Sequence record: NC_129898.1
Length of the DNA: 64,000 bases
DNA from: a phage
Strand: one strand, 5' to 3'
The position numbers and the translations under genes were made by a program. The notes beneath the pieces were generated by a model that had not been told where the DNA came from, made no database searches, and saw only the letters and a program-made list of their open reading frames with translations. Below are positions 28,822 to 42,721 of this stretch, piece by piece; the first letter of the stretch is position 1; each line of letters begins with the position of its first letter.

Positions 28822-30459
28822 AAACTCGGGAGCATAGCCCTCGTCTCAAGGGTGTTATCATGCAAACGAATGTCATGGCTTATCATCTATGCGTAAACTG
28901 TCAGGGTGTAGACTATTCAGGCGTAAACAGTCTATGCGGGAACAATCTATACGTGAACAGTGAAATATGAAATAATAACAGTCGTTATTGTATCGAAAGT
29001 GTATAAGGTGTCAGATTATGGCATATTGTGTGACATTGTGTCAGACAAGTTTTTCTCCTCTTTGTCAAGTGCTGCATGGAAAATTTACAATCTGGTATGG
29101 TAGCATTTTTGCGGCCCTGTTTACATTCAGGAGTGTATGTATAACCCTTGTTGTGTGGGCGTTTAGACGTCTGGACGGTCAGAAGTCTGCAGGTTAATAT
29201 CTAATCTATTGGTCGCTAACTATATCCCCCACAAATAATAAGAAATGCAATTGTTATATGCGTAAACAGTAACTCATGTTATCAATCCCTGTATGTATCG
29301 CCAGTGGTGCGCATAATGGGTATTATGTTAAATTGCCCGTAATGATAACAGTTCTCACAATGATAGGTATTCTCATTCACCCCCACAAAATAGATTGCAA
29401 ATGTTGTGCCACTGTGTGAACGGCCTCGCCTATTAATTTGCCTCACTGCTCCGATATTTGAGAATTGTTATAAGAATGAGAAGTATTCCCATTTCGTCCG
29501 CCTGGCAGCGCTCCTGTAGGTCAGGTCAAAATCGTGGTAGAACTGGACCCCTTCAGATATTTCTAGCTGACTCTTCAGGCCTGTGTGGGAAAAGCCAACC
29601 TCTCCGGCGGGGCAGGGGGGTCAATTAAAAAATTTACGTAGGGTACGAAGCGCTCTTCAGGTAAGGCATGTATTAGAGGATGAAACCCTCTTCAGGTGAT
29701 GATATTTGTGGGTGTGATATTTGCTGGAAAGCCAGATATGACGGGACTACCGGCGGGGATGGGGTAGTATAGGCAGGGAAAATGTGGAGAATGTGGTTGG
29801 TAAATTTATCAGGCAGGTAGAGTATGGGATATGTTACAGGTATGTTAAATATGGAGGTAGGATATTTGTAAGATTTGTGTGTAAAATCAAAGACTTAAGT
29901 GGTGTTGTGGTATTTTCTATAAATAATTCAAGTTTAATAGGTAATATTTGTCTCTATCCACTTTGTGGGGTAAACAGATTCTAATTGAATTGGTTTACAA
30001 GTGTATATAAAGTATACAAATTAAAGATATAAGAAACCCCCCTCCCCCTTCGGCTACCATTCACCTTTTCCTCTGACTGGTACTTAAACACTTATTCAGA
30101 CTCTTCAGGTTATCACCCATATACTATATGGCAGTGACTGGTGTCCTCTGGCCCCTCTTTCGTCACCCGTCCGCTTCGCCATGCTAATGCCATAGCTAAA
30201 GGTTCGGTTGTTCACCCTGTTCACTCAGGTGTATCTCCATACCCCTTCAAACCGAAGAGAACAGAAAACCCGAATTACTCGGTAAAAGAAAAGAGAAGAA
30301 CTTAATTTTATCAGGATAGGCAAGAATGTCAAGGCATGACTGCTCACTAAACAAGCAAACAGTCATGTGTGGGAGGTAAGTGATTGTGGTGGTAGGAAAT
30401 TTAGTTGAAAGATGTGTTATAGGTGCTTCCAGCACTTTAGCCGGGCAGCTAATTGTGTG

Positions 30460-30675
30460 TCAGTCCAGCGGTTCATCCTCTACTTCACTGAAATCGATGT
30501 TCAGGGTCTCTTCCCAACCATCGATCTCAGCACAAGAGTGGAGTTCTTTAGGGTTTACTCCCAAAGCCTCAGCAACAGCGTCTATATTTAACACCTCTGG
30601 CAGGTATGATTCATCAAATTCAAGGTAAATCAGGCCACGAGTGTTGTCAGCTCCACCAAATATTTCTATCTTCAT
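30460..30675 (-). CDS. hypothetical small protein (MKIEI family)
   Basis: Starts MKIEIFGG; last gene of - arm. Confidence 0.45.
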   Translation of the reverse strand: MKIEIFGGADNTRGLIYLEFDESYLPEVLNIDAVAEALGVNPKELHSCAEIDGWEETLNIDFSEVEDEPLD

Positions 30676-30795
30676 AAAATCTCCTCTGGAAATGAGAGTG
30701 TGAACAGGGTTATACGTTCCAATGCGCAGGAATTTATATACGTTTGCCTCTTCAGGCCATGCTTTAGCATGATAAACTTATGTGGGCTCGGTGCT

Positions 30796-31185
30796 TCATA
30801 GTCTGCCACCTCTGAACTCTTCGTGCTCAGGCAGGATAGATAACCAGATGTCTAAGATGTCTTCCCACGTCAGGTCATCAGCCTCAGGATCCACCTGAGA
30901 CGGAGATAAAGAATCCTCAGAATTGAAGTTTTCCTCTGTAGTCACTTCTTCAGATGACTCTTTAGGTGCATGTGTGTTGGTCATGTTCCACCCGTTAGTA
31001 TTCCGGCAACAGCTGCTATGGACGTAATGATCATCAGGATCACCACCAAAACCTCGGACAATGTTTTCATTGCGTATTCCATATTCTCCAAACGATGTGT
31101 GGATACTATCACAGGAGCTGTAATGTGTCAACAGAAACACCGCGAGGGTTTGGTTAAAATCCGAGCGTATGGTGATTTGGGTCAA
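30796..31185 (-). CDS. hypothetical protein (acidic)
   Basis: ORF; start uncertain. Confidence 0.3.
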   Translation of the reverse strand: MTQITIRSDFNQTLAVFLLTHYSSCDSIHTSFGEYGIRNENIVRGFGGDPDDHYVHSSCCRNTNGWNMTNTHAPKESSEEVTTEENFNSEDSLSPSQVDPEADDLTWEDILDIWLSILPEHEEFRGGRL

Positions 31186-31344
31186 AACGGACGTGCGTTC
31201 TCGCCACGCTCGAAATAGAGAGTTGTTTGCAGACCGCTCTTAAACGCTCTGTAGCGAGATTATTCATCTAAGGTATGCAATCGTGCACCAGATAAAGAAA
31301 AGGACGCCACAGAGCGTCCTAGGTGTCTTAAATTTGATATTTTG

Positions 31345-31644
31345 CTATACCCATGAGGGCTTATCAAGGTTGGAGTAGCTAAAAGGTGTCAAAAGGTGAC
31401 TGTCAAAATCTTTCAAACTATCCAAATCTTTTTCCTCGTCCTGACACCATCTGTGCCTACATTTATTGTTGTAGTGCATGGAATGCATAGCGTTCTGCAA
31501 TTTAACAGGCACAAGTGATTCAGGAGTAGATAGTATTGTAGGGTATGCCAGAACCACCTCAAACAGTGGAAACACATCGAAACTAAAGTCTACCTCTGCA
31601 GAGGTTGATGGCATATAGGAGTATTTAGCCGCCTTTGTAGACAT
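31345..31644 (-). CDS. hypothetical small protein
   Basis: GAGGTGG RBS before ATG 31644. Confidence 0.45.
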   Translation of the reverse strand: MSTKAAKYSYMPSTSAEVDFSFDVFPLFEVVLAYPTILSTPESLVPVKLQNAMHSMHYNNKCRHRWCQDEEKDLDSLKDFDSHLLTPFSYSNLDKPSWV

Positions 31645-31652
31645 AATCCACC

Positions 31653-31979
31653 TCACACAGGTTTGATAATACCTTTACCGAATAACTCTTCGTATCTAAT
31701 CTTATCCGGATCCCACTCCTGGATAATTTCGAAGACAATATCTAACCCAGGGATAATCACTTCTCCAGTGTCAAGTTTGGCAAGAACAAAACCAGAAGGC
31801 TGAATGGTTTCCCAGTTGCGACGATTGGAATAGAAGACCTCAAAAATATCACCGACCTCGATCTGTTGATCAAGATGTTCAAGATTCTCTTTCATACGGA
31901 CGCAGCGGATTTTTCGTGCAGGCCATAGACCACCTGCATCACGTTCATTCAACTCTTTTACAGTGATCGGTATACCCAT
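31653..31979 (-). CDS. hypothetical small protein
   Basis: ORF in compact array. Confidence 0.45.
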   Translation of the reverse strand: MGIPITVKELNERDAGGLWPARKIRCVRMKENLEHLDQQIEVGDIFEVFYSNRRNWETIQPSGFVLAKLDTGEVIIPGLDIVFEIIQEWDPDKIRYEELFGKGIIKPV

Positions 31980-32034
31980 CTCAAATCTCCTTCATAGATA
32001 GTAAAAAGAGGGGCCCAAGCCCCTCTCTTTGTCA

Positions 32035-32340
32035 TTATTCTACAGAGCGTTTGAACAGAATGTCTGCCTCGGACATGTGTTCAACCTCTTCTTCGATTTT
32101 AGCTCGACGTTTTTCAGCCTCATAGCGAATATCGAACTCGGTAGCCACTAGAGATTTGATGAATTTAGGAGAATACAGATGATCCTGCTTCTCAACAAGA
32201 ATGATATCCTTGATGGCATCTTTCAGATCTTTAATCTGAAGCTGGAGTTCCACCAGTTCTTCGATTGTTTTGCGAAGGCGATCACGTTCTGCAGTGTCAG
32301 AAGGAAGAGAGGTGAACAGTTCAACTTTAGATTTAGCCAT
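32035..32340 (-). CDS. hypothetical coiled-coil protein
   Basis: Charged heptad-like sequence. Confidence 0.45.
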   Translation of the reverse strand: MAKSKVELFTSLPSDTAERDRLRKTIEELVELQLQIKDLKDAIKDIILVEKQDHLYSPKFIKSLVATEFDIRYEAEKRRAKIEEEVEHMSEADILFKRSVE

Positions 32341-32368
32341 AGTAAGAGTCTCCTTATGTTGTTTTAAA

Positions 32369-32686
32369 TTAACGTTCTACAAAAATACCGTTCAGTTCAA
32401 TAACCAGGAATTTCTGGTCTTCACTATCGTCACGAGCCAGCACCTCGCAGACGTAGCGGTCATCTCCGTCATCATCACAGTCAAATACAAGGCTGAGGAC
32501 TTTATCATGATAAATCTTCGACACTACTGCCTCGTAAGTATTGCCGATTGTGAATCCAAGATAATCCCCGATGCATTTGACAACAACATGGTCGCCAGCA
32601 TTTAAGTCAATCTTCGTCATTACTGTGCTCCTTGGGTGATAATATGGTATGTAAAACTTTAACCAGAGATGTGAATAACGCCCCAA
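32369..32686 (-). CDS. hypothetical small protein
   Basis: ORF; start uncertain. Confidence 0.4.
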   Translation of the reverse strand: MGRYSHLWLKFYIPYYHPRSTVMTKIDLNAGDHVVVKCIGDYLGFTIGNTYEAVVSKIYHDKVLSLVFDCDDDGDDRYVCEVLARDDSEDQKFLVIELNGIFVER

Positions 32687-32775
32687 AACACACAGATAGC
32701 GCTAAAACGGATAAGGCCATCATTAAAGCTTCAGTAAAATCAGTCCTTCCTCACCTCTTGTTAGTAACTATACTA

Positions 32776-33039
32776 TCATTTATCTTCGCCGTCAAGAACT
32801 TTTTTAAATCTCTCAGGAATATCTCCTGTTCTTAGATAGCTCATGACCTCCCAAGGTTTCCACTTGAACTTCTTGCACAGTAAGGCAGCCGAGATCGTCT
32901 CGTTGCGAAAAGAAAGGATATTAATATCCCACTCTGAGAACCCCAATTTCCGAAGAGTGGCTATAGAAATCCTCACAGCAACCCAACAAGAGAGGCACGC
33001 AACAAACGCCACTGCCACAACCCACATCAGGATGTTCAT
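32776..33039 (-). CDS. hypothetical membrane protein
   Basis: N-terminal TM helix MNILMWVVAVAFVACLSCWVAV. Confidence 0.45.
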   Translation of the reverse strand: MNILMWVVAVAFVACLSCWVAVRISIATLRKLGFSEWDINILSFRNETISAALLCKKFKWKPWEVMSYLRTGDIPERFKKVLDGEDK

Positions 33040-33128
33040 ACAGCCCCCTTAATGAAATACAAGGCATAGTGTTAAGGTTGCTACCCAGCAAATAATTAAC
33101 AGTGCCGTTGCAACCTTGGCAAGATTTA

Positions 33129-33416
33129 TCATAGTGTCTCTAAAATTTCATACCCTTCGGGTCGGAAAACAAGCCACTCAGGTGCTCCATTTGGTCGATA
33201 CGCTTTATACAGAACAACCTGATCTCGGCACATGCACATGGCTACATAGTTTTCATCAACACCTGCCTCCTGCATTGCATCTTCTTCTCCGGCAACAGCC
33301 TTGCTTACAACTTCCTTGGTAGGCAGGTGGGCGATCAGCTCGTCACCATCGTTAATTCCAAAATGACTGAGTTCTCCATTGGTATCTTTAATCTTGATCT
33401 TAACCAAATCTTTCAT
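33129..33416 (-). CDS. hypothetical small protein (MK-I/V family)
   Basis: C-terminal EGYEILETL resembles family tail. Confidence 0.45.
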   Translation of the reverse strand: MKDLVKIKIKDTNGELSHFGINDGDELIAHLPTKEVVSKAVAGEEDAMQEAGVDENYVAMCMCRDQVVLYKAYRPNGAPEWLVFRPEGYEILETL

Positions 33417-33745
33417 TAGTCTTCCTCCAGGTTCAAAGGTCCTAAGATTTCATATGCTAGATTAGAAGTTACCAGAGGGTCTTCTGCATCTTTAGTATTA
33501 TACCATCCGTGAATAACCAGAGTCCCACTTTGCTTCATGTCTAACTGGAACTGTTCTGCCGTTTCCTCATCCATCTCCAAGATCTCCATGAGGTATTTGA
33601 TGTTAGGAAGGTATGCAGCTGTTACAGTCCCCTCTACCAGGCCTTCAGGCCAACCTACATCCGGATGACAAGTAGGGACCAGAGAGGTCAGCTTGATAGT
33701 GTATGCTTTTTCTGCACGAGCCTTCAGTAACGGATCAATTTTCAT
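33416..33745 (-). CDS. hypothetical small protein (MK-I/V family)
   Basis: MKIDPLL start; overlapping start/stop with neighbours. Confidence 0.45.
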   Translation of the reverse strand: MKIDPLLKARAEKAYTIKLTSLVPTCHPDVGWPEGLVEGTVTAAYLPNIKYLMEILEMDEETAEQFQLDMKQSGTLVIHGWYNTKDAEDPLVTSNLAYEILGPLNLEED

Positions 33746-34095
33746 TATTCTTCCTCCTCTTCGGTGCCTGCTTCCAGTAGTAAGTTAAGAACATCTTCAG
33801 CAGAAGGTTCGTAGAACTCTTGGCCTTCGTTGTCGATGATGCGATAGTCATCACCCCGAATAATCAGAGGATCGTCATCAAAACCTTCAAGACCTTTAAC
33901 AACGACAACACGGTCGATTGCCATCATTGTAAGAACTTTATCGACATCTTCCTCTGCTACACCATACTGCAGCAGAATGTCTTTGGTAGGAGGGACAGCA
34001 TCCACCACAACACCGTTACCAAAACCTTCCGGAAGTTTAGCTAAAATATCTTCCGGAACCACATTCATATCAAAACCTGTGATCTCTACTTTCAT
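33745..34095 (-). CDS. hypothetical small protein (MK-I/V family)
   Basis: MKVEITGFD start; acidic tail. Confidence 0.45.
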   Translation of the reverse strand: MKVEITGFDMNVVPEDILAKLPEGFGNGVVVDAVPPTKDILLQYGVAEEDVDKVLTMMAIDRVVVVKGLEGFDDDPLIIRGDDYRIIDNEGQEFYEPSAEDVLNLLLEAGTEEEEE

Positions 34096-34356
34096 TTACA
34101 GAACCTCTTCGTCAACTACTTCATAAAAATGGCTTGGGATTGCAATGGCGTTCTCGCCTTCACCTAAGAACACTGTCCCACTAACGATTAACATTAGAAG
34201 AACGTCTGCGATACCTTCCTCGGGGACGTTGCCAAAACCTTTAATCAGCTCGTAGGTTGGAAGATTTACCTCTAAGATGTCACCATCTTTGGAGCGGAAA
34301 TCAACACCATCCTGAATCTCTGCCGTTTCAAGGTTTTTCAATTTAATCTTCATCAA
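34096..34356 (-). CDS. hypothetical small protein (MK-I/V family)
   Basis: MMKIKLKNL start; YEVVDEEVL tail. Confidence 0.45.
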   Translation of the reverse strand: MMKIKLKNLETAEIQDGVDFRSKDGDILEVNLPTYELIKGFGNVPEEGIADVLLMLIVSGTVFLGEGENAIAIPSHFYEVVDEEVL

Positions 34357-34432
34357 TCAGTCTCCTGTCTTGTTAAGATGAAGGTATTATTGCACACAGG
34401 GTTGGTGTTGTCAACACCTGTGTGGAATAAAA

Positions 34433-34828
34433 TTACTGAAACAGTGCAGATAAATTACCTTCTGGTGGGAACTTATCTGCCAAGAACGGAGTCAGAACAG
34501 TGGCCTTCTGAAGATCTGGAGTCCACTCGTTGTTCAGAACATCCCAGTAGTACGCAATGTTGCTGTGTGGGTGCCGCATTACGAACTTTTTCCCTTCGTA
34601 GTCAGTTGAAACCTCTACAGAAGAAATAACAACAGAATCTTCAAGAGTTTCTTCATAGAAAGATCCACCCTCGAATTTCCAACGAGATGCAAGAGCTCCT
34701 GCCTTAAACGCTGCAGATAACGGACTGTCGGCAAGAACATACATTTCTTGCACTCTGTCGCTACGATCTTTGCTTCTTACGTTGTATACAGTATCTGAGC
34801 TATACTCAACACGGTATAGACTTACCAT
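34433..34828 (-). CDS. hypothetical protein (paralogue of 36644-37042)
   Basis: AGALASRWKFEG and KFVMRHPHSNIAYYWDVLNNEWTP match paralogue. Confidence 0.5.
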   Translation of the reverse strand: MVSLYRVEYSSDTVYNVRSKDRSDRVQEMYVLADSPLSAAFKAGALASRWKFEGGSFYEETLEDSVVISSVEVSTDYEGKKFVMRHPHSNIAYYWDVLNNEWTPDLQKATVLTPFLADKFPPEGNLSALFQ

Positions 34829-35160
34829 TACCGCACCTCCTCAATAACTTCCACATCTGAACCTACCACAAATGCAAAAGGGCAGGTTTCATGAAAGACA
34901 TCCGGATCGCCGCCAAGCTTGCTAACTATTTCTCCACCACTAATAAACACAAGCTCACCGATATTCATCAGATTGCTGAAATAGTATCCATAATGATTAA
35001 AGAATGCAGCAGGGTCAGGCAGACTGGTAGCCTCAAGCTCTACATCGGTTGAGATTACTTTCTTATCATACCCTCTGGCCTTTTGAGATGCAAGATCTGC
35101 AGAATCCTCAGGCGACCGGAGATGCACAGGAATTGTTTCACCAATAAAGCGTACTTTCAT
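34828..35160 (-). CDS. hypothetical small protein (MKV family)
   Basis: MKVRFIGE start preferred; DVEVIEEVR tail. Confidence 0.45.
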   Translation of the reverse strand: MKVRFIGETIPVHLRSPEDSADLASQKARGYDKKVISTDVELEATSLPDPAAFFNHYGYYFSNLMNIGELVFISGGEIVSKLGGDPDVFHETCPFAFVVGSDVEVIEEVR

Positions 35161-35164
35161 ATTC

Positions 35165-35428
35165 TCACCCAACAACCATAGCTTCAAAAGGGGTCATAAA
35201 CGAATAAACAGCATTATCATCTGCTTCAGGAAATGCCCCCAAAGACTTCATGTCTGAGCCCTTGACAAATACAAGGTTCTGATCAAAAGCTTCTTGTGGA
35301 TCAATCCGATACATATTTCGTAGGGTATCACTTACCTCCTCATCAAGAGGTGAGTATGCTGTGCACGTTTTTCCGATCAAGCTTTGAGAATCAGGATATC
35401 CACCTGAAGTTTTAAAATAAACAATCAT
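35165..35428 (-). CDS. hypothetical small protein (MKV family)
   Basis: VKGSDMKSLGA motif shared with family. Confidence 0.45.
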   Translation of the reverse strand: MIVYFKTSGGYPDSQSLIGKTCTAYSPLDEEVSDTLRNMYRIDPQEAFDQNLVFVKGSDMKSLGAFPEADDNAVYSFMTPFEAMVVG

Positions 35429-35523
35429 ATAGTATCACCTCTAGTAAGAGATTGGGATTCCTTTCCCACAAATAATTACAAACTTTTCTTTTTATTGAGA
35501 GAAGTATGCTAATCCAAGCAGGA

Positions 35524-35793
35524 TTACTCTTCTACAATCTCATACACATCAGGAGTTACAATCAACTCTTCTCCGTTACCCGGTGCAACAAACACCACCA
35601 AGCCTTCAGGTGTGTGCTTTTTAGCCATCTCGATAACATCTTCTCGCAGAGCTGGCTCCATCAGATCAAAGCCTTCACCCAAGGCATCACGAACTACCTT
35701 CATGTAGTCCACTGGTTGTGCTTCAACGATCATGCCTTCAACCAGTCCGCAGTTTTTGTCTTCCAGCTCAGTTTTGAATAATTTAATTTTCAT
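35524..35793 (-). CDS. hypothetical small protein (MK-I/V family)
   Basis: MKIKLFK start; DVYEIVEE tail. Confidence 0.45.
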   Translation of the reverse strand: MKIKLFKTELEDKNCGLVEGMIVEAQPVDYMKVVRDALGEGFDLMEPALREDVIEMAKKHTPEGLVVFVAPGNGEELIVTPDVYEIVEE

Positions 35794-35930
35794 TTAGAGG
35801 TCTCCTCAATTATTTGATATTAATAGCCGTAACCTAACACATTAACTACAACTGCGATTGCAAACATAATTTCAAAGCATGCAATCTCTACATTTGGGAC
35901 TAATTTCTTAATCACGCCCATTGTAGCACC

Positions 35931-36248
35931 TCATTCTCCAAAGTAAATCTTTACTTTGCCTTTCCCTTTACCTTTCTTTCCACCGCATTTAGCCAACTGA
36001 CGTGCTGCAACATCTACCATACGGTCAGTTGCCTCGTAAGCGTCACTGCCTTTAGCTTTGGCAATAACTTCTTTTCCGGAAGTGTCAAAAATGAACGCCA
36101 TGACTTCCTGGTGATCATTTTCAACTTTTACACTCACACGTGCATAGTTGGCAGAGGGGTGCAAACGCTCCAGCTTAGACATTTTGTGGGAAATGAAAGA
36201 CACCATACCTTCAGTGATTTCTACGTTGCCAGTGATTTCAATTTGCAT
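35931..36248 (-). CDS. hpf: ribosome hibernation promoting factor homologue (HPF/YfiA family)
   Basis: MQIEITGNVEITEGM...KLE...VKVE...AKAKGSDAYEATDRMVDVAARQLAK aligns along its length with E. coli Hpf as recalled; Lys/Gly-rich tail. Confidence 0.75.
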   Translation of the reverse strand: MQIEITGNVEITEGMVSFISHKMSKLERLHPSANYARVSVKVENDHQEVMAFIFDTSGKEVIAKAKGSDAYEATDRMVDVAARQLAKCGGKKGKGKGKVKIYFGE

Positions 36249-36335
36249 AACGTGCTCCTTTTAAGGAAGAGAGAATAACAACCATCTCTCTTTGAAAACA
36301 ATAATACTATAGCTGAAGCGTTGTGTCAACAGTTT

Positions 36336-36626
36336 TTACAACTTATTATCGATAGTATCTAAAATATCTACAGCAAGATCTGCCATTTTTCGAACATACT
36401 CTGCAAACTCAACAGGATCCTTGATCAAAGAATTCACAGGGTCGTACCCTAGAGCGTTCAAAATGGCTGCAGCATCTACAACCTTCTCATCATTTGCGAA
36501 GATCTCTCCGTCAAACTTGTGGGTCCATTTTGAGTCAATCTTGGCAGAGCATGGTTGGTCAATGCTTGTTACACCATCGTCTTTAAACTCTCCTGCGTTA
36601 TCAATATTCAGAACTAAATCCATCAT
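36336..36626 (-). CDS. hypothetical small acidic protein
   Basis: ORF in array. Confidence 0.45.
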   Translation of the reverse strand: MMDLVLNIDNAGEFKDDGVTSIDQPCSAKIDSKWTHKFDGEIFANDEKVVDAAAILNALGYDPVNSLIKDPVEFAEYVRKMADLAVDILDTIDNKL

Positions 36627-36643
36627 AGTGGCACCTCACTGTT

Positions 36644-37042
36644 TCAGTCTAGCTTTTCTTCAACAACCCCGTAGCTCGGGGCAGAGTCAAGAGCTTTTTG
36701 GTTTAAAAGTGGTGTAGCAGAATCTGCAAACGGTGTCCAAGTTTTTGTTCTGGCATTCCAGTAATGCTTCACTCTGGAATCTGGATGCACTATAACAAAA
36801 ACTTTTTCACTTGTCAACACATTAATTTCTTCTACACCCTTGCTGATAATTTCTCCGTCATAGCCCCCAGTCTGGTATCCTTCGTACCAGGTTCTTGCAT
36901 AGGCATAGCCAGCCTGCCAGCATGCAGCCTCCTCCGAGGTGGAGACTACGTAGAAGTCTTTCTCAAATTCTGGGATACGTCCTTGCTTTACGCTCCAAGC
37001 TCCGCGAATTTTCATTGTTACTTTGAAAAGCTTGTTCTTCAT
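36644..37042 (-). CDS. hypothetical protein (paralogue of 34433-34828)
   Basis: AGYAYARTWYEG and VFVIVHPDSRVKHYWNARTKTWTP. Confidence 0.5.
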   Translation of the reverse strand: MKNKLFKVTMKIRGAWSVKQGRIPEFEKDFYVVSTSEEAACWQAGYAYARTWYEGYQTGGYDGEIISKGVEEINVLTSEKVFVIVHPDSRVKHYWNARTKTWTPFADSATPLLNQKALDSAPSYGVVEEKLD

Positions 37043-37043
37043 A

Positions 37044-37298
37044 CTACCGCTCTACAATCTCTACGTCTGTTCCTACACCGAAGGCATAGTAATGTTCTTC
37101 CCCAAAGTAATACTTGGGGACACCAGCTTTGATCAGGTCTAACCCGCGAATAAATACCACACCGTGTGATACAGTGGAATGCTTCTGACGCACAGGATCG
37201 TTGTCAGGCAACCATTCAAAGTACACCGCAGGTACAACCTTCCCTTTAAGAAAGGATTGCCCCAAGTAGACGTTAGAATCAAGAATTTTGACCTTCAT
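37044..37298 (-). CDS. hypothetical small protein (MKVK family)
   Basis: MKVKILDSNVYLGQ...IRGLDLIKAG...DVEIVER. Confidence 0.5.
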   Translation of the reverse strand: MKVKILDSNVYLGQSFLKGKVVPAVYFEWLPDNDPVRQKHSTVSHGVVFIRGLDLIKAGVPKYYFGEEHYYAFGVGTDVEIVER

Positions 37299-37512
37299 GA
37301 TCGTCCTCCACTATCTCCACATCCTCCCCTAGGGCAAAGTTGTAGGTCCACTGACTGTCAAAGCAGTCCTGAGATGCTCCAGCGGCAATAAGATCTGCAC
37401 CCTTTATTTTTAAAAGGTCAGGATAATCTTCGTTAGGGACAGCGGTAAACACTTTACCCACTAAAGGCTCCTGACCAATATAGAAGTTTGAATCTAAAAC
37501 TTTAACTTTCAT
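37279..37512 (-). CDS. hypothetical small protein (MKVK family)
   Basis: MKVKVLDSNFYIGQ...IKGADLIAAG...DVEIVED. Confidence 0.5.
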   Translation of the reverse strand: MKVKVLDSNFYIGQEPLVGKVFTAVPNEDYPDLLKIKGADLIAAGASQDCFDSQWTYNFALGEDVEIVEDDHEGQNS

Positions 37513-37796
37513 CAGCGGTCTCCATCGGGCGGTTGTGGAACGTAAACACTGTTACGAATCTCGTCAGCAGTGTAGTAACAAGTTTTCCCCTCTCTGTCCC
37601 TGGCAGCAATGTATTCAGCTATACCAATAAGTGCCATAGCCTTGGTGGCGTATCTCTTAAGCTCGTTAGCTCCCCAGCAAAATCTCTGCCAAAACGGTAT
37701 GAAACCGAATAGGTACACCTTCTGTTTCACTATCCAATAAGTTCCTTTACAGATCACTTTAAACTCTGCAGCACTGTTACTGACACCATTGCTCAT
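37512..37796 (-). CDS. hypothetical small protein
   Basis: Overlapping start/stop with neighbours. Confidence 0.45.
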   Translation of the reverse strand: MSNGVSNSAAEFKVICKGTYWIVKQKVYLFGFIPFWQRFCWGANELKRYATKAMALIGIAEYIAARDREGKTCYYTADEIRNSVYVPQPPDGDR

Positions 37797-37808
37797 TATC
37801 TTCTCCTT

Positions 37809-38093
37809 TTATTTTTCTGGGTTTGGCAGATATTGCACATTGGCAGGAGGAACACCGGATAGCTCCCAAACAACCATAGTGCTGTACCCTGGCACACTTC
37901 TAACATTTAAAAGAGTAGGAGCACCAACACATTTAAACTTCCTTTTCCCAAATCCGTTCTCCATCATAACCCAGTATCCTGTATCCTGATCACCTGGAAT
38001 TTGTGTTCCATCATCGTCCACCCAGCGGACGGTCCATTTCGATACAGCAACGGCTCGGTATTTAAACTTTTTAAACCACTCAAACAGTTTCAT
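37809..38093 (-). CDS. hypothetical small protein
   Basis: ORF in array. Confidence 0.45.
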   Translation of the reverse strand: MKLFEWFKKFKYRAVAVSKWTVRWVDDDGTQIPGDQDTGYWVMMENGFGKRKFKCVGAPTLLNVRSVPGYSTMVVWELSGVPPANVQYLPNPEK

Positions 38094-38188
38094 AATTCAG
38101 CCTCGCATAGCCATAATAACTATAAACAGACAAATAATGAATCCGAATGCCACGCCACCCATAAACGTTAATATTGATGCGACCATAA

Positions 38189-38374
38189 TCAATCATCCTC
38201 GTTTGGCAGCTCTTCCATTTTGACATACCGGAAAGTGTTGCCGTAATAGTTGATCCATGACATCAGCTCGCTTTCTTGCTCTTCCTCTGGGATTGACTCT
38301 CGTATGCTGACAAGTTTTAAGAAAATCCAATCACAATCTGCACCCATCCTACCAGACAGGCAATAGTGCTTCAT
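38189..38374 (-). CDS. hypothetical small protein
   Basis: ORF in array. Confidence 0.4.
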   Translation of the reverse strand: MKHYCLSGRMGADCDWIFLKLVSIRESIPEEEQESELMSWINYYGNTFRYVKMEELPNEDD

Positions 38375-38392
38375 AGAACCCTCCCGACCGGT

Positions 38393-38587
38393 TTAGAATA
38401 TTGCTTCTTCCATTGCACCTGAGAGCAATAAAGAGGTAATATGGCTAACATTCATCTCAGACTCTACTTCCTCCCCTTTGAAAGGTTCGCGGCAGAATAG
38501 GACTGTTTCAGGACTTTTACTTCGAACAATATAATACAAATCATTCAAAGTGTTGTAGTAATAAGTGTTAAAACGTAAGTTTTTCAT
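38393..38587 (-). CDS. hypothetical small protein
   Basis: ORF in array. Confidence 0.4.
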   Translation of the reverse strand: MKNLRFNTYYYNTLNDLYYIVRSKSPETVLFCREPFKGEEVESEMNVSHITSLLLSGAMEEAIF

Positions 38588-38871
38588 TTTCTAGTCCCCT
38601 TCTTAGATTTTTGTGAAGAAACGCTTTCTGCAATACGAGACAGGCGTTCTTCTGAAGCTTTACCTACCCCAGGTTTCTTGAGCGGGTTATCTTTATGACC
38701 GCAATCCAATTGGATGCTAGATACCTCCCCAACCTTGTAAGTCAATTCTAGCAAAAGGTTGTCGTCCTTGTCAAATGTTTTTACGATAAATTTTTTATCG
38801 TTCTCCTGAACTTCATATCTGGTACCTGCAGTATACAGCATGGTGCCATCAGCATAGGATATCCAGATCAT
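38584..38871 (-). CDS. hypothetical small protein
   Basis: Overlapping start/stop. Confidence 0.45.
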   Translation of the reverse strand: MIWISYADGTMLYTAGTRYEVQENDKKFIVKTFDKDDNLLLELTYKVGEVSSIQLDCGHKDNPLKKPGVGKASEERLSRIAESVSSQKSKKGTRK

Positions 38872-39215
38872 TGAGCCTCCTTCTGCTGCAACAGCATTAA
38901 CTCTTTGTTGGAAATCTTTACTGCTGTCTTTATTGTTCCATCTTCACGGAACCACGACCAGAATTCTACAGTGTCACCACTATCAAGCAAGGCATGACCA
39001 TGGTAAAAATCCTTGTCCTTAGACAGTTTCTCATCTATATCTGCATCGACACATTCGTGATCCATAGCATTTTGCCTGAATGCATCGGTTATGCCAATGC
39101 ATGCCTTGCTCTCAAGACTGGCATATCCGATATCTTTTAATTCAGTTTCCCAAACCCAGAACCCTATAAAAGCCACAACAGCTACCCACATTAATATCGA
39201 TTTAATCTTTGACAT
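38868..39215 (-). CDS. hypothetical protein with N-terminal TM/signal segment
   Basis: ILMWVAVVAFIGFWVW hydrophobic N-terminus. Confidence 0.45.
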   Translation of the reverse strand: MSKIKSILMWVAVVAFIGFWVWETELKDIGYASLESKACIGITDAFRQNAMDHECVDADIDEKLSKDKDFYHGHALLDSGDTVEFWSWFREDGTIKTAVKISNKELMLLQQKEAQ

Positions 39216-39275
39216 TCTCTCTACCTCTTTCTTAATTTGTTTAATTATGGCACATCCTTTGTGCCTTGTTGCACA

Positions 39276-39746
39276 CTACTTAGACAACAGTTCAAAATAG
39301 TGCAAAATTAACAGAAGTTGAATTACGCCTAGCACAACGGCAAGTATGTTAATCTTAGAATCAAAAAACTTCTTAACTTTTACTCTAAAAGGTTCCTTAA
39401 TGTCCTTTACGATCCTATCTATAGATGACCTCATATCTCTGATTACCATCCTGAACATTAAAGACGGATGCTCCCCCATCTCTGTAACGGAATCGAAAAC
39501 ATACTCTCTTCGGTCATAAGGGCCGCCAGCTCTGCGTATTAACCTCTCCACAGAGACCTCGAACGTCACACCTGTAACGTAATCATCTATAACAAGTCGT
39601 GACGGGTCTTTACCTTTACTATCAAGAGGTATCAAAGTTATCTTTCCAGATTTTGTTAAAATTTCTCCTTTTTCAAGCAAGGTGTACCAATGCTCTCTAC
39701 CAAGATTGTTGAGGCACGTTTTTACATATTTAACAAACATCGTCAC
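39276..39746 (-). CDS. hypothetical protein with C-terminal TM anchor
   Basis: C-terminal ILAVVLGVIQLLLILHYF. Confidence 0.45.
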   Translation of the reverse strand: MTMFVKYVKTCLNNLGREHWYTLLEKGEILTKSGKITLIPLDSKGKDPSRLVIDDYVTGVTFEVSVERLIRRAGGPYDRREYVFDSVTEMGEHPSLMFRMVIRDMRSSIDRIVKDIKEPFRVKVKKFFDSKINILAVVLGVIQLLLILHYFELLSK

Positions 39747-39946
39747 CCCTTATCGCACGTCTGATATAACCATTCTATGAAATCTTGATACCACTCTCCC
39801 TCTGAGCGCTCCGTAGGCCAATAATCTTCCCCCTCTCTTGCATTAAAATCTGAGTATTCGACTTTCCACTCCTTTACCAGCTCGTGGAGAAGGTTTTCAG
39901 CCTGTTCTAAGGATTTATTTTTTGTCATTACTGTCCCCTTTTTCAA
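39743..39946 (-). CDS. hypothetical small protein
   Basis: Overlapping start/stop. Confidence 0.45.
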   Translation of the reverse strand: MKKGTVMTKNKSLEQAENLLHELVKEWKVEYSDFNAREGEDYWPTERSEGEWYQDFIEWLYQTCDKG

Positions 39947-40148
39947 GATAATTATACATCAGTGCCGCGCCACCCAAAATGGCTACTAGCAGTAATACTC
40001 CAGAGAGCATTTCAATAAACATGGCTTGAAACATTAGAAGGCCCCCTCTAATTTCACGCACCATTTTAAATACATACTCTTTTCCCATGAAGATGCTAAA
40101 CTAAGGTCTGTATAGAATGCAATCTCCCTAAGAACAGCATAAACAGTT

Positions 40149-40385
40149 TCAGGCACTGTTACCATTCTTATCTGCCTCCTTCATTTTCCTGACGGTTTTA
40201 CAGTGATCTACCAAGCACATAACCACAATGAAGAGAACAACAGGCCAAAAAGGTGCGGCAGTGATTATAGTTATAAAGTCGTCAAACTTAATTTTTCTAC
40301 AAGATATGATGCAAAGAGTTGCTAAAACAACCATTGTCAGAAAGGTCAATGCGCAATACCAAACCAGCACAGTGTCTATAGTCAT
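40149..40385 (-). CDS. hypothetical membrane protein
   Basis: Two hydrophobic helices. Confidence 0.45.
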   Translation of the reverse strand: MTIDTVLVWYCALTFLTMVVLATLCIISCRKIKFDDFITIITAAPFWPVVLFIVVMCLVDHCKTVRKMKEADKNGNSA

Positions 40386-40386
40386 A

Positions 40387-40914
40387 CTATATCTCCTGGT
40401 TCAAACTGTTAAGAAAGGATACCCTGTCTTCGCTATTTTTCTCTGTGATGTACCCTCCAAACATGGAAAGAATCACATGCTTCAAGTAATCTTTTTCTGG
40501 GTCGCTTAGATGATTGCGTGGCTTTATTTCCACATCATGGTAGTCATACAATCCACAATCATGATACCCCCAGTATCGACACACCTCAATACTGATCGGG
40601 AGTTTTTTGTCACACGAAACTTTCCAACGGGTTACGTTGTTACCAGGAGATAAATCCTCTCCCACCTTCACGAATGACAAATCATAATTCATAAACTTTT
40701 CGTACAGTTTAAGTACAAAACCTTCTACCTGTGGAGAAACACCAGCCACTAGCTGGGCGTATCTATATTTACTTTCAATAATTTTTCGGCGCTTTGCTGT
40801 AAGGTTTATTGCAGCAATTTGACTCTCCGAGTATCTCCAAGGCTTATATATAAATGCTTTCGGGTCTTTATCGCCATAAAAATCTTTCCAATCAACTAGC
40901 AGCATACCTGTCAC
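40387..40914 (-). CDS. hypothetical protein (175 aa)
   Basis: ORF in array. Confidence 0.5.
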   Translation of the reverse strand: MTGMLLVDWKDFYGDKDPKAFIYKPWRYSESQIAAINLTAKRRKIIESKYRYAQLVAGVSPQVEGFVLKLYEKFMNYDLSFVKVGEDLSPGNNVTRWKVSCDKKLPISIEVCRYWGYHDCGLYDYHDVEIKPRNHLSDPEKDYLKHVILSMFGGYITEKNSEDRVSFLNSLNQEI

Positions 40915-41144
40915 TCCTCCACAACTTCAAGGCCTTTGCCGCCTCGTTCTGGTAGATTACTTAAAGACAGGTAATACGTATAGTCAGGAGAGATCCTACC
41001 AGACTCTGCACCTGCAGATAGTAAATCTTTTCCCTTAACCATGACAACATTATCGTTTGCAGATAGTCGTTTTGCTTCCACAATTTTACCAACGCAGTCA
41101 ACCAAGGAAGGGTACCCTAAATCTGTAAGAAATTTAACTTTCAT
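40911..41144 (-). CDS. hypothetical small protein (MKVK family)
   Basis: MKVKFLTDLGYPSL...VKGKDLLSAG...LEVVEE. Confidence 0.5.
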   Translation of the reverse strand: MKVKFLTDLGYPSLVDCVGKIVEAKRLSANDNVVMVKGKDLLSAGAESGRISPDYTYYLSLSNLPERGGKGLEVVEE

Positions 41145-41183
41145 GCTACCTCCTACTTCTACCGTCCCTAGTAAGATAAATTA

Positions 41184-41582
41184 TTACTGAACAAAGCGCG
41201 GAGCTGGGAAGGATAACTCTTCTAAAGAGAAGATTTCATTCCCCACAATCCATGTTGCAGGATCATCCGGGTTGACTGGATAGATGATCATCACCTCGTC
41301 AGTGTTACATACCCGCTTTTTACCTGTGGAGTCATCAGCAACCAGCATGCGCGGTTCTTCAGAAATGCACAGGTAGCCTCCTCGGCCCACTGTTCCTTCC
41401 ACAGGGTCTTGTCCTTTGATCACGATGATTATCTTCTCTCCTGAGGCGATATTACCTTGCACACTCACCGTTTGACCAACCTTGGATGTGCCAATCTTAG
41501 TGACTTCGAACATTACATCCCGAATTACCGTTGCATAATCGCCAGACACTTTCTTACCTTCTTTAGTGATCTCAATCTTCAT
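41184..41582 (-). CDS. hypothetical protein (MKIEI family)
   Basis: MKIEITKEG start. Confidence 0.45.
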   Translation of the reverse strand: MKIEITKEGKKVSGDYATVIRDVMFEVTKIGTSKVGQTVSVQGNIASGEKIIIVIKGQDPVEGTVGRGGYLCISEEPRMLVADDSTGKKRVCNTDEVMIIYPVNPDDPATWIVGNEIFSLEELSFPAPRFVQ

Positions 41583-41818
41583 ACACTGGGCTCCTTAAAT
41601 GAATCTATGTAATCAATTAAATCCCAAGCATCCCTATGACCTGTCAGAGGGTATACTTCTTCAAGAGGGATCATAGCAGTAAGTCTATCAAAAACCCAAT
41701 CCGGACGCAACATCTTATGGTGATATTCCCACTCACCTTCTACAGACTTTTTCTGAGTGATCAGAATCTCTGTGTAGTGTTTTGCCTGTCTTGAGTAAAT
41801 TGAAAATGACTTATACAT
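41579..41818 (-). CDS. hypothetical small protein
   Basis: Overlapping start/stop. Confidence 0.45.
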   Translation of the reverse strand: MYKSFSIYSRQAKHYTEILITQKKSVEGEWEYHHKMLRPDWVFDRLTAMIPLEEVYPLTGHRDAWDLIDYIDSFKEPSV

Positions 41819-41855
41819 AGATGACCCTCCCTCTTGTTGAAAACAAAATACACTA

Positions 41856-42134
41856 CTACCAAGTCACTGTCAAGTAGGCAACCGTGTTATTTTTCTCCGG
41901 AGAGATGCCAACAACATCCACCTGCAGACCTCCTGCCCTCAAATCTCCAACGATGTGTGGAAAGTAGTCTGAGAGGTGTGATGGGAGATTTATCGAAAAT
42001 CCACATCCCAGAAAGCCTGCTAACGCTTTATTTTGTATATCCCCTACAATCGCATCATAAATAGAGTTAAGCTCGTCAGGAAGCGTTACAGGACGTTTTA
42101 GAGCTAACTGGTGCAACTTGTCCTTAGCACTCAT
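41856..42134 (-). CDS. hypothetical protein
   Basis: Start trimmed to ATG 42134 to avoid overlap with upstream methyltransferase. Confidence 0.4.
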   Translation of the reverse strand: MSAKDKLHQLALKRPVTLPDELNSIYDAIVGDIQNKALAGFLGCGFSINLPSHLSDYFPHIVGDLRAGGLQVDVVGISPEKNNTVAYLTVTW

Positions 42135-42136
42135 TT

Positions 42137-42670
42137 TCATTTCAAGTCTGCCTCTGGTGGTGCCAACCACATAAATGGCGGCAAGTCTAGACGGTTTTTC
42201 TTGTCCCATACAAAATATGCATATGCCTGCCCATCCGTTCTACCATTGGATTGGAATGACGGACGCTTAGATATTGTGATCACAGTGGTAGGTGCATTAT
42301 CAAGCCACCATTCAAATCTGGCCTTGCTTTCCAGAAAATTAAGACGCAAAAGCATAATAACTACATCGGCATCTTTCAACGCCTTGTCTACAAACTCACG
42401 AGCCAAGCTGTACGGTGGGTTGGTGATAATACAGTCAACATGGTTGTATTCTGTATTCAGATAGTCAACACCTTCTTGGATTTCTCCCCATGCAGATCCT
42501 AACGGCATACGGGAGTAGAACACACCTGAGGCACTATTCCTGCAAGGCTCTAAGTAAGTCCAGTCTTCTGGGAACGGAATAAGGTCATACAGCCCTTCTG
42601 CACACCACTCCGGTGTCACATACTCATCGTAAGCGTTACGTTGTTCATCAGGTTTTCTAGCACAAGTCAT
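42137..42670 (-). CDS. DNA N6-adenine methyltransferase (phage Dam-like, small)
   Basis: YVTPEW N-terminal motif and DCIITNPPY catalytic motif. Confidence 0.8.
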   Translation of the reverse strand: MTCARKPDEQRNAYDEYVTPEWCAEGLYDLIPFPEDWTYLEPCRNSASGVFYSRMPLGSAWGEIQEGVDYLNTEYNHVDCIITNPPYSLAREFVDKALKDADVVIMLLRLNFLESKARFEWWLDNAPTTVITISKRPSFQSNGRTDGQAYAYFVWDKKNRLDLPPFMWLAPPEADLK

Positions 42671-42721
42671 GCAAATCTCCAGATCATAAAAGCCCTCCGA
42701 AGAGGGCTTTAGGATTAATGT

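What the first reader, a model, noticed from the sequence alone, without database searches (positions are those of the whole stretch)
30460..41818. About 11 kb array of some 30 small genes with expanded paralogue families
At least ten proteins start MK[IV][KE][ILV] and many end in an acidic (D/Y)VEIVE(E)-like tail (37279, 37044, 40911, 34828, 35524, 33745, 34096, 33129, 41184, 30460). A subset shares [IV][KR]G.DL..AG. Separately, 36644-37042 and 34433-34828 are clear paralogues (HP.S...YW......WTP). Genes are tightly packed with overlapping start/stop codons. Repeated duplication and divergence of small proteins is what host-takeover or anti-defence sets look like, but function is unknown.
Basis: seen in the sequence. 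Interest (0 to 1): 0.75.

Follow-up and report, generated by a model that had tools for sequence, protein, structure and literature searches.

The report
Small paralogous accessory genes in rV5-like phage
This is the known block of about 37 tiny, mostly unannotated genes of an rV5-like E. coli phage; twelve of them belong to three duplicated families, ten of which are predicted to be small SH3-like barrel proteins, and they are probably dispensable host-interaction genes whose targets are unknown.

Summary
The window comes from an rV5-like myovirus (Vequintavirus; 96% identical to phage YP-6, 94.5% to FV3). Region 30460-41818 holds about 37 tightly packed minus-strand genes, nearly all annotated 'hypothetical'. 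The paralogy is real. Family A has five members with the MKVKxL...G.DL..AGA...DVEIVE pattern. Family C has five acidic members with MKIKL...LPT...YEIVE. Family B has two members of about 131 aa. AlphaFold models of A (pLDDT 90.7) and C (pLDDT 87.6) are both five-stranded SH3-like barrels, so the shared end motifs are probably the first and last strands. Sequence evidence linking A to C is only suggestive (P about 0.001-0.003). There are no Pfam or PDB relatives. Family A also occurs in variable small-gene regions of other coliphages. Copies are under purifying selection. Neighbouring copies have recombined into a hybrid gene in some relatives. A viable phage (Bas59) lacks 13 genes of the array, including two A copies. 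The most likely role is dispensable early proteins that bind host factors. An anti-defence role is untested, and these phages are reported to be very sensitive to restriction. The result is a useful family definition in a region noted in 2013, with moderate interest.

The parts
30460..41818 (-). [quoted passage not shown]
   Evidence: ORF list and FV3 annotation. About 90% coding, and 16 of 37 junctions overlap or abut. The rV5 paper notes '88 mainly small ORFs' in this part of the genome.
37279..37512 (-). Family A member, 77 aa (SH3-like barrel; phrog_5009)
37044..37298 (-). Family A member, 84 aa; overlaps the previous gene by 20 nt
   Evidence: 45% identical to 37279, E = 8e-17. phrog_5009.
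40911..41144 (-). Family A member, 77 aa; closest to the copy found in lambdoid phage mEp013 and in E. coli prophages
   Evidence: Leave-one-out E = 9e-6. Homologues mEp013_56 and P0032.
35165..35428 (-). Family A member, 87 aa, with an insertion between strands 2 and 3 (phrog_13920)
   Evidence: Leave-one-out E = 2.6e-3. hhalign P = 1.5e-6 to 40911. Weak phrog_5009 hit.
34828..35160 (-). Family A member, 110 aa, with a long insertion (phrog_13661)
   Evidence: Leave-one-out E = 1.1e-4. hhalign P = 2.7e-7 to 37044.
35524..35793 (-). Family C member, 89 aa, net charge -11 (SH3-like barrel with a helical insert)
34096..34353 (-). Family C member, 85 aa
   Evidence: Leave-one-out E = 2.6e-4. hhalign P = 4.6e-8 to 33745.
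33745..34095 (-). Family C member, 116 aa, net charge -22, with a C-terminal acidic extension
   Evidence: Leave-one-out E = 3e-7 with enriched profiles. Charge.
33416..33745 (-).
   Evidence: E = 3.7e-6 against a C-core HMM that excluded it, and its L007 orthologue scores 1e-5. hhalign P = 4.2e-7 to 33745.
33129..33416 (-). Family C member, 95 aa
   Evidence: Leave-one-out E = 7e-5 and 2.8e-5. Its ECP32 orthologue is the second BFVD structural hit of the C model.
36644..37042 (-). Family B member, 132 aa (phrog_7379)
   Evidence: E = 5e-10 to 34433. hhalign P = 3.3e-13.
34433..34828 (-). Family B member, 131 aa (phrog_7379)
35931..36248 (-). HPF/RaiA (ribosome hibernation factor) homologue embedded in the array
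   Evidence: Pfam PF02482, E = 1.9e-12, 48.2 bits against a cutoff of 23.7.
36301..36329 (-). Sigma-70-like promoter (TTGACA-17-TATTAT) in the gap upstream of the HPF gene
   Evidence: The hexamers are kept in relatives while the spacer varies. This is a prediction only.
34386..34414 (-). Sigma-70-like promoter (TTGACA-17-AATAAT, extended -10) upstream of the four-gene family C run
   Evidence: Prediction only.
36730..40860 (-). Segment absent from the viable phage EduardKellenberger (Bas59): 13 whole genes, including A copies 37279 and 37044 and the 'virion structural protein' orthologue 39276-39746
   Evidence: blastn breakpoints and a fusion ORF made of a g40387-like N-terminus plus the last 33 aa of g36644.
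30460..30675 (-). Acidic 71-aa protein with an MKIEI start; not a supported member of A or C
   Evidence: Leave-one-out E = 92. No hit with enriched HMMs. Best hhalign P about 0.009.
41184..41582 (-). 132-aa protein with an MKIEI start; not a supported member of any family

Best explanation
The region is the variable small-gene end of a host-RNA-polymerase-transcribed unit of a Vequintavirus (rV5-like myovirus). It encodes dispensable accessory proteins.

Twelve of its roughly 37 genes come from old tandem or segmental duplications and form three families. Families A and C, five genes each, are minimal SH3-like five-stranded barrels of about 70-115 aa. The conserved 'MK[IV]K[IL]' start is the first strand and the '[DY]VEIVE' end is the last strand; in an SH3 topology these two strands pair to close the barrel. 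The loops are what differ between copies, above all the segment between strands 2 and 3. That segment is short in 37279 and 40911, is an insertion in 37044, 35165 and 34828, and is a helical hairpin in family C.

I infer that each copy is a separately maintained binder of a different host or competitor protein, and that the mostly acidic surfaces favour protein binding or nucleic-acid mimicry over nucleic-acid binding.

Shown here: the paralogy, the predicted fold, purifying selection, copy-number change by recombination, and dispensability of 13 genes. Inferred: early expression, binding to host targets, and different targets for different copies.
For: - **Identity and context:**, and the rV5 paper, which places the region in transcription unit genes 82-163.
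- **Paralogy statistics:**
- **Location of members:** no A, B or C member lies elsewhere in the 64-kb window.
- **Fold:** the models are confident, and both retrieve the same SH3, KOW, integrase C-terminal domain and PsaE structures.
- **Selection:** window-versus-FV3 dN/dS for family members is 0-0.17, so each copy is a constrained gene.
- **Age and rate:** all five A and five C positions are conserved in a divergent lineage (L007), but at only 34-55% identity for C and 39% for B, against 84-91% for the most conserved array genes, such as 32035, 38584 and 38189.
- **Recombination:** unequal crossing-over has produced a 70-aa hybrid gene in some relatives.
- **Dispensability:** phage Bas59 carries a natural deletion of 13 genes.
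- **Promoters:** sigma-70-like promoters have conserved hexamers.
- **Known host-directed gene:** an HPF homologue lies in the array.
- **Distribution:** family A homologues lie in comparable small-ORF plastic regions, namely the Phi1/RB49-type hyperplastic region and the mEp013 nin-like region. The exhaustive search found 29 representative homologues, all small apart from a few multi-repeat or larger proteins.
- **Charge:** family C has net charge -8 to -22.
Against: - No partner, phenotype or expression timing has been measured for any member.
- Common ancestry of A and C is not established by sequence (hhalign P = 0.001-0.003, probability 5-13%).
- The array lies at the distal end of a long unit rather than at an immediate-early position.
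- The promoters are consensus matches only (47 found against 35.6 +/- 6.1 expected).
- One array gene's rV5 orthologue was detected in virions, so not everything here need be a host-directed early protein.
Confidence: 0.55

Rival explanations
1. The paralogues are specifically an anti-defence arsenal. Each SH3-like copy inhibits a different bacterial immune system, and duplication and divergence were driven by an arms race.
For: - Families C and B are among the fastest-diverging genes between lineages.
- The proteins are acidic, as known DNA-mimic anti-restriction proteins are (from my own knowledge).
- The families are phage-restricted and sit in plastic regions of several phage groups.
Against: - There is no homology to any characterised anti-defence protein, and no Pfam or PDB relatives.
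- The array is nearly invariant across 114 of 122 related genomes. That is not the presence/absence pattern usual for counter-defence islands (from my own knowledge).
- Vequintavirinae are reported to be exceptionally susceptible to RM systems and commonly targeted by Abi systems (PMC8594841).
- dN/dS is low.
Confidence: 0.2
2. The small barrels are nucleic-acid-binding regulators of phage gene expression, replication or translation, working like KOW, Sm or OapB domains alongside the HPF homologue.
For: - The array contains HPF and a phrog_639 'transcriptional regulator'.
Against: - Most members are strongly acidic: pI is 4.0-4.6 for C, and 4.1-4.6 for three of the five A members, while 40911 (pI 5.4) and 37044 (pI 6.8) are near neutral. 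That is unfavourable for RNA or DNA binding.
- There is no sequence match to KOW or Sm families.
Confidence: 0.1
3. They are minor virion or assembly proteins, such as decoration proteins, chaperones or ejected proteins.
For: - The orthologue of 39276-39746 is annotated as a virion structural protein, and an rV5 gp133 was prominent in virion mass spectrometry. That gp133 is this gene's orthologue is my inference from the FV3 annotation note.
- SH3-like domains are common in phage structural and lysis proteins (from my own knowledge).
Against: - The region lies in the unit with replication and nucleotide-metabolism genes, not in the late unit, genes 27-81.
- The passages of the rV5 paper that I read do not list A, B or C orthologues among virion proteins; I did not open its mass-spectrometry table.
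- The 'structural' gene itself is deleted in viable Bas59, together with two A copies.
Confidence: 0.07
4. The shared termini are chance or compositional similarity among spurious ORFs.
For:
- One tiny ORF (40034-40165) has a doubtful substitution pattern.
Against: - Leave-one-out HMM tests beat 3,800-4,500 shuffled decoys.
- Pairs remain significant after Bonferroni correction in hhalign.
- The family genes show low dN/dS.
- The AF2 models are confident.
- Independent homologues exist in other phage groups.
Confidence: 0.02

Closest known systems
Hyperplastic regions of T4-type phages, for example the block of small hypothetical ORFs (ORF064-084) in Krischvirus Phi1
   Same: Both are dense runs of small, mostly unannotated genes that vary between relatives. 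Phi1 ORF073 is a sequence homologue of family A (tblastn with family representative P0097, E = 9e-4).
   Different: The phage lineage is different (Vequintavirus). Here the family is expanded to five copies, or ten if C is related, instead of one. The array is unusually conserved within the genus.
Host-takeover modules of large lytic phages (SPO1 gp37-60, T5 pre-early genes, T4 early genes); cited from my own knowledge, not tested here
   Same: All are clusters of small genes behind host-type promoters, many dispensable, and some act on host machinery. Here an HPF homologue is present.
   Different: Timing and toxicity are not measured here. The array is at the distal end of a long unit rather than at the entering end of the genome. 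No homology to those proteins was found.
SH3-like small beta-barrel fold (eukaryotic SH3 domains, KOW, PsaE, retroviral integrase C-terminal domain)
Gp54 of phage Bas11 (PDB 9AXB), a 66-aa non-essential beta-barrel protein of unknown function that triggers CapRelSJ46 (PMC11578894)
   Different: Its barrel has six strands. It has no detectable sequence relation: the A6 and A5 profiles do not find 9AXB at E up to 10.
PHROG families phrog_5009 and phrog_7379
   Same: 37279, 37044 and 40911 fall in phrog_5009, and both B genes fall in phrog_7379, so part of the paralogy is already implicit in that database.
   Different: PHROGs puts 34828, 35165 and every family C member in separate single-lineage families: 13661, 13920, 11868, 12359, 12155, 12457 and 12794. 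The links shown here are therefore not recorded there, and all are labelled 'unknown function'.
Multigene families of large eukaryotic DNA viruses (poxvirus and ASFV MGFs); an analogy from my own knowledge
   Same: Both involve tandem paralogues of a small scaffold that diverge in sequence, with copy number changed by recombination between neighbours.
   Different: They are unrelated proteins and hosts. No host-range phenotype is known here.

Membership tests
Vequintavirus (rV5-like) genome region | Nucleotide identity and synteny with rV5, FV3 and related genomes | tested here: met
   96.3% identity to YP-6 and 94.5% to FV3 over the whole 11.5 kb. 114 of 122 records cover at least 80% of it.
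SH3-like small beta-barrel (fold level) | Five-stranded barrel whose best structural neighbours are SH3, KOW or PsaE domains | tested here: met
Canonical SH3 or KOW sequence families (Pfam) | A significant match to the family HMM | tested here: not met
   No Pfam family at E up to 1 for any A or B member, nor for the three C members scanned at that threshold; the other two C members had none at E up to 0.1. The only hits were two sub-threshold chance matches for 33129.
Family A (phrog_5009-like) | The pattern MKVKxL...GY...GK..A...[IV].G.[DE]L...GA...Y.F...[DE].E[IV][VI]E, with a significant profile score | tested here: met
   Five window genes are supported. There are 29 representative homologues at E up to 1e-3 among 1.84 billion proteins.
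Family C | A leave-one-out profile score above shuffled decoys | tested here: met
   Five genes are supported. 30460 fails (E = 92), and 41184 is not detected.
One A+C superfamily | Significant profile-profile similarity or a direct structural superposition | tested here: inconclusive
HPF/RaiA (PF02482), as annotated for orthologues of 35524 in some GenBank records | A match to the Ribosomal_S30AE HMM and the beta-alpha-beta-beta-beta-alpha fold | tested here: not met
   35524 has no Pfam hit at E up to 1, and its model is an SH3-like barrel. The real HPF homologue is 35931-36248. The labels on 35524 orthologues look like annotation errors.
Anti-defence gene set | Homology to a characterised anti-defence protein | not testable with these tools
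   No anti-defence library was available. Pfam, PHROGs and PDB give no functional match.
Anti-defence gene set | Strong presence/absence variation among close relatives, and a protective phenotype | tested here: inconclusive
   The array is mostly conserved, but deletion and hybrid variants exist. The literature reports that these phages are very RM-sensitive.
Host-takeover or accessory early module | Dispensable for growth on a laboratory host | tested here: met
   This holds for 13 of the genes. The viable BASEL phage EduardKellenberger lacks the equivalent of about 36730-40860. The family C run and three A copies are present in every genome examined, so their dispensability is untested.
Host-takeover or accessory early module | Early transcription from host-type promoters | tested here: inconclusive
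   There are consensus-like TTGACA/-10 sites on the coding strand whose hexamers are conserved in relatives. No transcript data were found.

The most novel reading that the evidence does not exclude
Families A and C are one ancient superfamily: a minimal SH3-like barrel that Vequintaviruses have expanded to ten separately maintained copies. Each copy would use a different strand-2-to-3 insert to bind and neutralise a different host or defence protein. That would make it a phage 'multigene family' of scaffold-based binders, with relatives scattered as single copies through the plastic regions of T4-like, lambdoid and T1-like coliphages.
Probability: 0.2. Interest if true: 0.6.

Novelty: new member of a known kind. 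Interest (0 to 1): 0.35.

Why it matters
rV5-like phages are among the most commonly isolated E. coli phages and are candidates for therapy and biocontrol, yet about a third of their genome is small genes with no known function. This analysis groups twelve of those genes into three families. It gives ten of them a confident predicted fold and explains the recurring end motifs as the terminal barrel strands. It also identifies natural variants that can serve as ready-made mutants: the Bas59 deletion and the 70-aa hybrid gene. Together these turn an opaque block into a short list of testable binders. If the copies target distinct host or immune proteins, they would be a compact source of new inhibitors. 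If not, the result is still a cleaner annotation, including correction of the 'sigma 54 modulation factor' label on 35524 orthologues.

Tried and rejected
- **The search for related loci:** the family A alignment failed because it has no conserved 7-10 column stretch.
- **Word-indexed homologue searches:** these returned almost only Vequintavirus orthologues.
- **Exhaustive profile search:** it added distant small homologues but no annotation. Its hit in a 4,388-aa protein (P0104) lies in a YDG/MBG surface-protein repeat context and was set aside as uninformative.
- **Domain and structure databases:** Pfam on all array proteins found only HPF. PHROGs returned 'unknown function' except phrog_639 (regulator) and phrog_7821 (virion protein). 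PDB sequence profiles found nothing.
- **Family C as diverged HPF:** this idea was prompted by GenBank labels and the MxIEITG starts. It was rejected because there is no S30AE match, the predicted fold differs, and hhalign P exceeds 0.008.
- **Membership of 30460 and 41184:** rejected.
- **Further hidden families:** none were found by all-vs-all profile comparison of orthogroups.
- **Literature:** the rV5 paper does not mention paralogues. The CRISPRi-ART and Hachiman papers that use the rV5-like phage EdH4 give no gene-level data for this region. No transcriptome of an rV5-like phage was found.
- **Rfam:** no credible RNA family was found in 27000-43000.

Full report
**What the window is**

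The 11.5-kb region is 96.3% identical to Escherichia phage YP-6 and 94.5% to FV3. It matches 122 phage records, and 114 of them cover at least 80% of it. These are rV5-like myoviruses of the genus Vequintavirus. In the FV3 RefSeq record the corresponding genes, ORF117-154, are all 'hypothetical' with three exceptions: a ribosome-associated inhibitor (RaiA/HPF), a 'transcriptional regulator' and a 'virion structural protein'. In transcription order, the genes upstream are PhoH, a ClpP-like protease and a DNA methyltransferase. Downstream lies an ORF-free stretch of about 2.2 kb, where the minus-strand block meets a plus-strand block. [quoted passage not shown] It placed this region in transcription unit genes 82-163 and did not mention paralogues (PMC3606486).

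**Checking the observation**

I defined 38 minus-strand genes between 30460 and 42209, using FV3 start sites where they differ from the longest ORF. The stated span is about 90% coding. Sixteen of 37 junctions overlap or abut, and the median gap is 4 nt.

The N-terminal pattern MK[IV][KERD][ILVF] occurs in nine array proteins. With crude automatic gene calls it occurs in 8 of 34 array proteins and in 0 of 76 elsewhere in the window (Fisher p = 4e-5).

All-vs-all blastp and phmmer gave clear pairs:
- 37044/37279: 45% identity, E = 8e-17.
- 34433/36644: E = 5e-10.
- 37279/40911: E = 3e-7.

Many weaker links also appeared.

I ran leave-one-out HMM tests against a database that included 3,800 composition-matched shuffles. 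All five family A members were supported (E = 1.6e-15 to 2.6e-3), as were four family C members (E = 1.8e-6 to 5.5e-3). I then enriched the profiles with syntenic orthologues from a divergent lineage (L007, see below). This brought in 33416 as a fifth C member: E = 3.7e-6, with its orthologue at 1e-5 and the best decoy at 0.5.

An all-vs-all hhalign of 38 orthogroups (703 pairs) left only A-A, B-B and C-C pairs above the Bonferroni line, and no further family.

Two true members, 35165 and 33416, were missed. No A, B or C member exists elsewhere in the 64-kb window.

**What the proteins are**

Pfam recognises nothing in A, B or C, including in distant family A homologues. Profile searches of all PDB sequences find nothing either.

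PHROGs places 37279, 37044 and 40911 together (phrog_5009) and the two B genes together (phrog_7379). It puts every other A and C member in its own lineage-specific family, all of unknown function.

The AlphaFold2 results were as follows:
- **Family A (37279, 21-sequence alignment):** pLDDT 90.7, pTM 0.79. The model has five strands and one short helix that carries the G.DL..AGA motif.
- **Family C (35524, 16 sequences):** pLDDT 87.6, pTM 0.68. The model has the same five strands, with about 30 residues of helices inserted between strands 2 and 3.

In both models the first strand is residues 2-5, the 'MKVK' motif. The last strand is the '(D/Y)VEIVE' motif, residues 65-69 in A and 84-88 in C. 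In an SH3 topology the first and last strands are neighbours. This is an inference; I could not inspect coordinates.

The insertions in the larger A members (37044, 35165, 34828) align to the same strand-2-to-3 position as the helical insert in C. Sequence evidence for common ancestry of A and C remains only suggestive, with hhalign P = 0.001-0.003 and probability 5-13%.

A BFVD search with the C model recovered a Vibrio phage Vc1 protein, the ECP32 orthologue of 33129 and other small uncharacterised phage proteins. No function emerged.

Family C proteins are very acidic, with net charge -8 to -22.

**Distribution and evolution**

Word-indexed searches find almost only Vequintavirus orthologues. 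The exhaustive profile search of 1.84 billion representatives found 29 family A homologues at E up to 1e-3. Most are 63-86 aa proteins with the same pattern. One protein has two tandem copies of the domain and one has three.

tblastn with one of these representatives shows the family in several other phage groups:
- Krischvirus (RB49/Phi1-type T-even phages).
- Proteus phages.
- Vibrio phages.
- Several E. coli siphoviruses.

In Phi1 the homologue (ORF073) sits in a run of about 20 small hypothetical ORFs between dam/nrdC and gene 38. In phage mEp013 it sits in a nin-like block of small ORFs between RusA and the lysis genes. Family A is thus a widespread, uncharacterised accessory domain of phage plastic regions.

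Within the rV5 group the array is old and largely fixed. A divergent lineage recovered from metagenome assemblies (L007/L008) keeps five A and five C genes in the same order. It has one B gene, because the 36644 slot holds an unrelated 106-aa ORF. It also has five genes without window counterparts, and five window genes are missing from it.

Orthologue identity between the two lineages ranges from 29% to 91%. Families C (34-55%) and B (39%) are among the most diverged, while 32035, 38584 and 38189 are at 86-91%.

Between the window and FV3, family members have dN/dS of 0-0.17. They are therefore real, constrained genes, and each copy is maintained separately.

Copy number does change. Three assemblies carry a single 70-aa gene whose N-terminal part matches 37279 and whose C-terminal part matches 37044. 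It sits exactly where the two adjacent genes lie in the window, which is the signature of unequal crossing-over.

The gene order A-A-B occurs twice: 37279-37044-36644 and 35165-34828-34433. This suggests an old segmental duplication, but I could not test it.

**Dispensability**

The BASEL phage EduardKellenberger (Bas59, 131.5 kb) lacks the equivalent of window positions about 36730-40860. A single ORF joins the N-terminal 120-odd residues of a g40387-like protein to the last 33 residues of the 36644 orthologue. Thirteen whole genes are therefore dispensable for plaque formation on E. coli K-12. They include the A copies 37279 and 37044 and the 'virion structural protein' orthologue. The family C run and the other three A copies were present in every genome I examined.

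**Expression signals**

A consensus scan found 47 sigma-70-like sites against 35.6 +/- 6.1 in shuffles. All five 11-of-12 matches with a perfect TTGACA lie on the coding strand. Two of these are in intergenic gaps, upstream of the HPF gene (36329-36301) and upstream of the C run (34414-34386); a weaker 10-of-12 site precedes the first gene of the stated span (41873-41845).

In relatives the hexamers are retained while the spacers vary. The rV5 authors likewise found only host-type promoters spread across the genome.

I found no transcriptome for any rV5-like phage, so early expression is inferred, not shown.

**Most likely mechanism**

I favour the following reading, with confidence of about 0.55. 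The region is a block of dispensable accessory genes transcribed by host RNA polymerase. Its ten SH3-like proteins are a diversified scaffold, with a conserved barrel core and variable loops and inserts. Each copy is kept because it binds a different host or competitor macromolecule. The HPF homologue shows that at least one gene in the array is of a kind that acts on host physiology. The acidity of most members argues for protein binding or mimicry rather than nucleic-acid binding.

The specific anti-defence version is possible (about 0.2) but has no direct support. The array is too conserved for a typical counter-defence island. The BASEL study also reports that Vequintavirinae are 'exceptionally susceptible' to RM systems and commonly hit by Abi systems (PMC8594841).

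Nucleic-acid-binding regulators (about 0.1) and virion or assembly proteins (about 0.07) are less likely. The reasons are set out under the rival explanations.

**Comparison with what is known, and novelty**

The closest analogues are the hyperplastic small-ORF regions of T4-type phages and the host-takeover gene clusters of other large lytic phages.

The closest structural class is the SH3-like barrel. Membership of the canonical SH3 or KOW sequence families was tested and not met.

The region itself is already in more than 100 GenBank genomes, and the abundance of small ORFs was noted in 2013. What is new is:
- The definition of family C, which PHROGs splits into five.
- The extension of family A to 34828 and 35165.
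- The fold assignment, which explains the terminal motifs.
- The natural deletion and hybrid variants.

I class this as a new member of a known kind. Interest is moderate (0.35). The function is still unknown, but the region is now set up for direct tests.

Noticed in passing
window about 28200-30460: An ORF-free stretch of about 2.2 kb lies between the convergent plus- and minus-strand gene blocks, matching the 'non-coding' box in the rV5 paper. It contains ATAGTTGCC-type repeats and a perfect 18-nt inverted repeat (28554-28571 / 28688-28705). A consensus-like sigma-70 promoter at 30332-30305 (minus strand) points into it and is conserved even in the divergent lineage L007. There is no Rfam hit. 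It could be an origin, a regulatory region or an unannotated RNA.
   Followed up: partly
L010 (MZ501061.1, phage EduardKellenberger/Bas59) 7635-8102; window equivalent about 36730-40860: A natural deletion of about 4 kb in a viable BASEL phage creates a fusion ORF, annotated 'putative glycosidase', from a g40387-like N-terminus and the last 33 residues of the family B gene 36644. Thirteen array genes are absent.
   Followed up: yes
L003:6001-6213, L004:6001-6213, L005:3239-3451: A 70-aa hybrid gene (N-terminal part like 37279, C-terminal part like 37044) replaces the two adjacent family A genes in three metagenome-assembled relatives. This indicates unequal crossing-over between neighbouring paralogues.
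   Followed up: yes
window 35524-35793 (orthologues in GenBank records such as nomo, inoa, naswa, ECP26/32): Orthologues of this family C gene are labelled 'sigma 54 modulation factor' in several records. The protein has no S30AE/HPF match, and its predicted fold is an SH3-like barrel. The genuine HPF homologue is the neighbouring gene 35931-36248, so this is probably a propagated misannotation.
   Followed up: yes
window 8797-9586, 10045-10635, 17010-17216 and 24090-24329 (plus strand): The other small-gene block of the window also holds small paralogues, unrelated to A, B or C. There are three adjacent genes (8797-9171, 9168-9395, 9392-9586; E = 1e-5 to 4e-3), one adjacent pair (10045-10299 and 10303-10635; E = 9e-8) and one dispersed pair (E = 1.6e-4).
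   Followed up: no
search hits (MG0656xx records): Eighteen records named 'Campylobacter phage', with host Campylobacter jejuni, are about 91-92% identical to this E. coli rV5-like region over its whole length. The host label looks doubtful, or the lysates were mixed.
   Followed up: no
window 37279-36644 and 35165-34433: The gene order family A, family A, family B occurs twice, with the second A gene abutting the B gene in both cases. This suggests an ancient segmental duplication of a three-gene unit.
   Followed up: no
P0084 (98 aa, metagenome): The C-terminal half of the 33416 protein is fused to an unrelated N-terminal segment carrying Pfam PF24132. This is domain shuffling within family C.
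   Followed up: no
window 40034-40165: This 43-aa ORF overlaps both neighbours and, compared with FV3, shows only non-synonymous changes (dN = 0.063, dS = 0). It also has no counterpart in lineage L007. It may not be a real gene.
   Followed up: partly
window 32035-32340: This is the most conserved gene of the array: 91% amino-acid identity to the divergent lineage and dN/dS of 0.008 against FV3. It matches phrog_639 'transcriptional regulator' and has a faint sub-threshold GapR-like DNA-binding match (E = 0.04). It may be a conserved regulator embedded among fast-evolving neighbours.
   Followed up: partly
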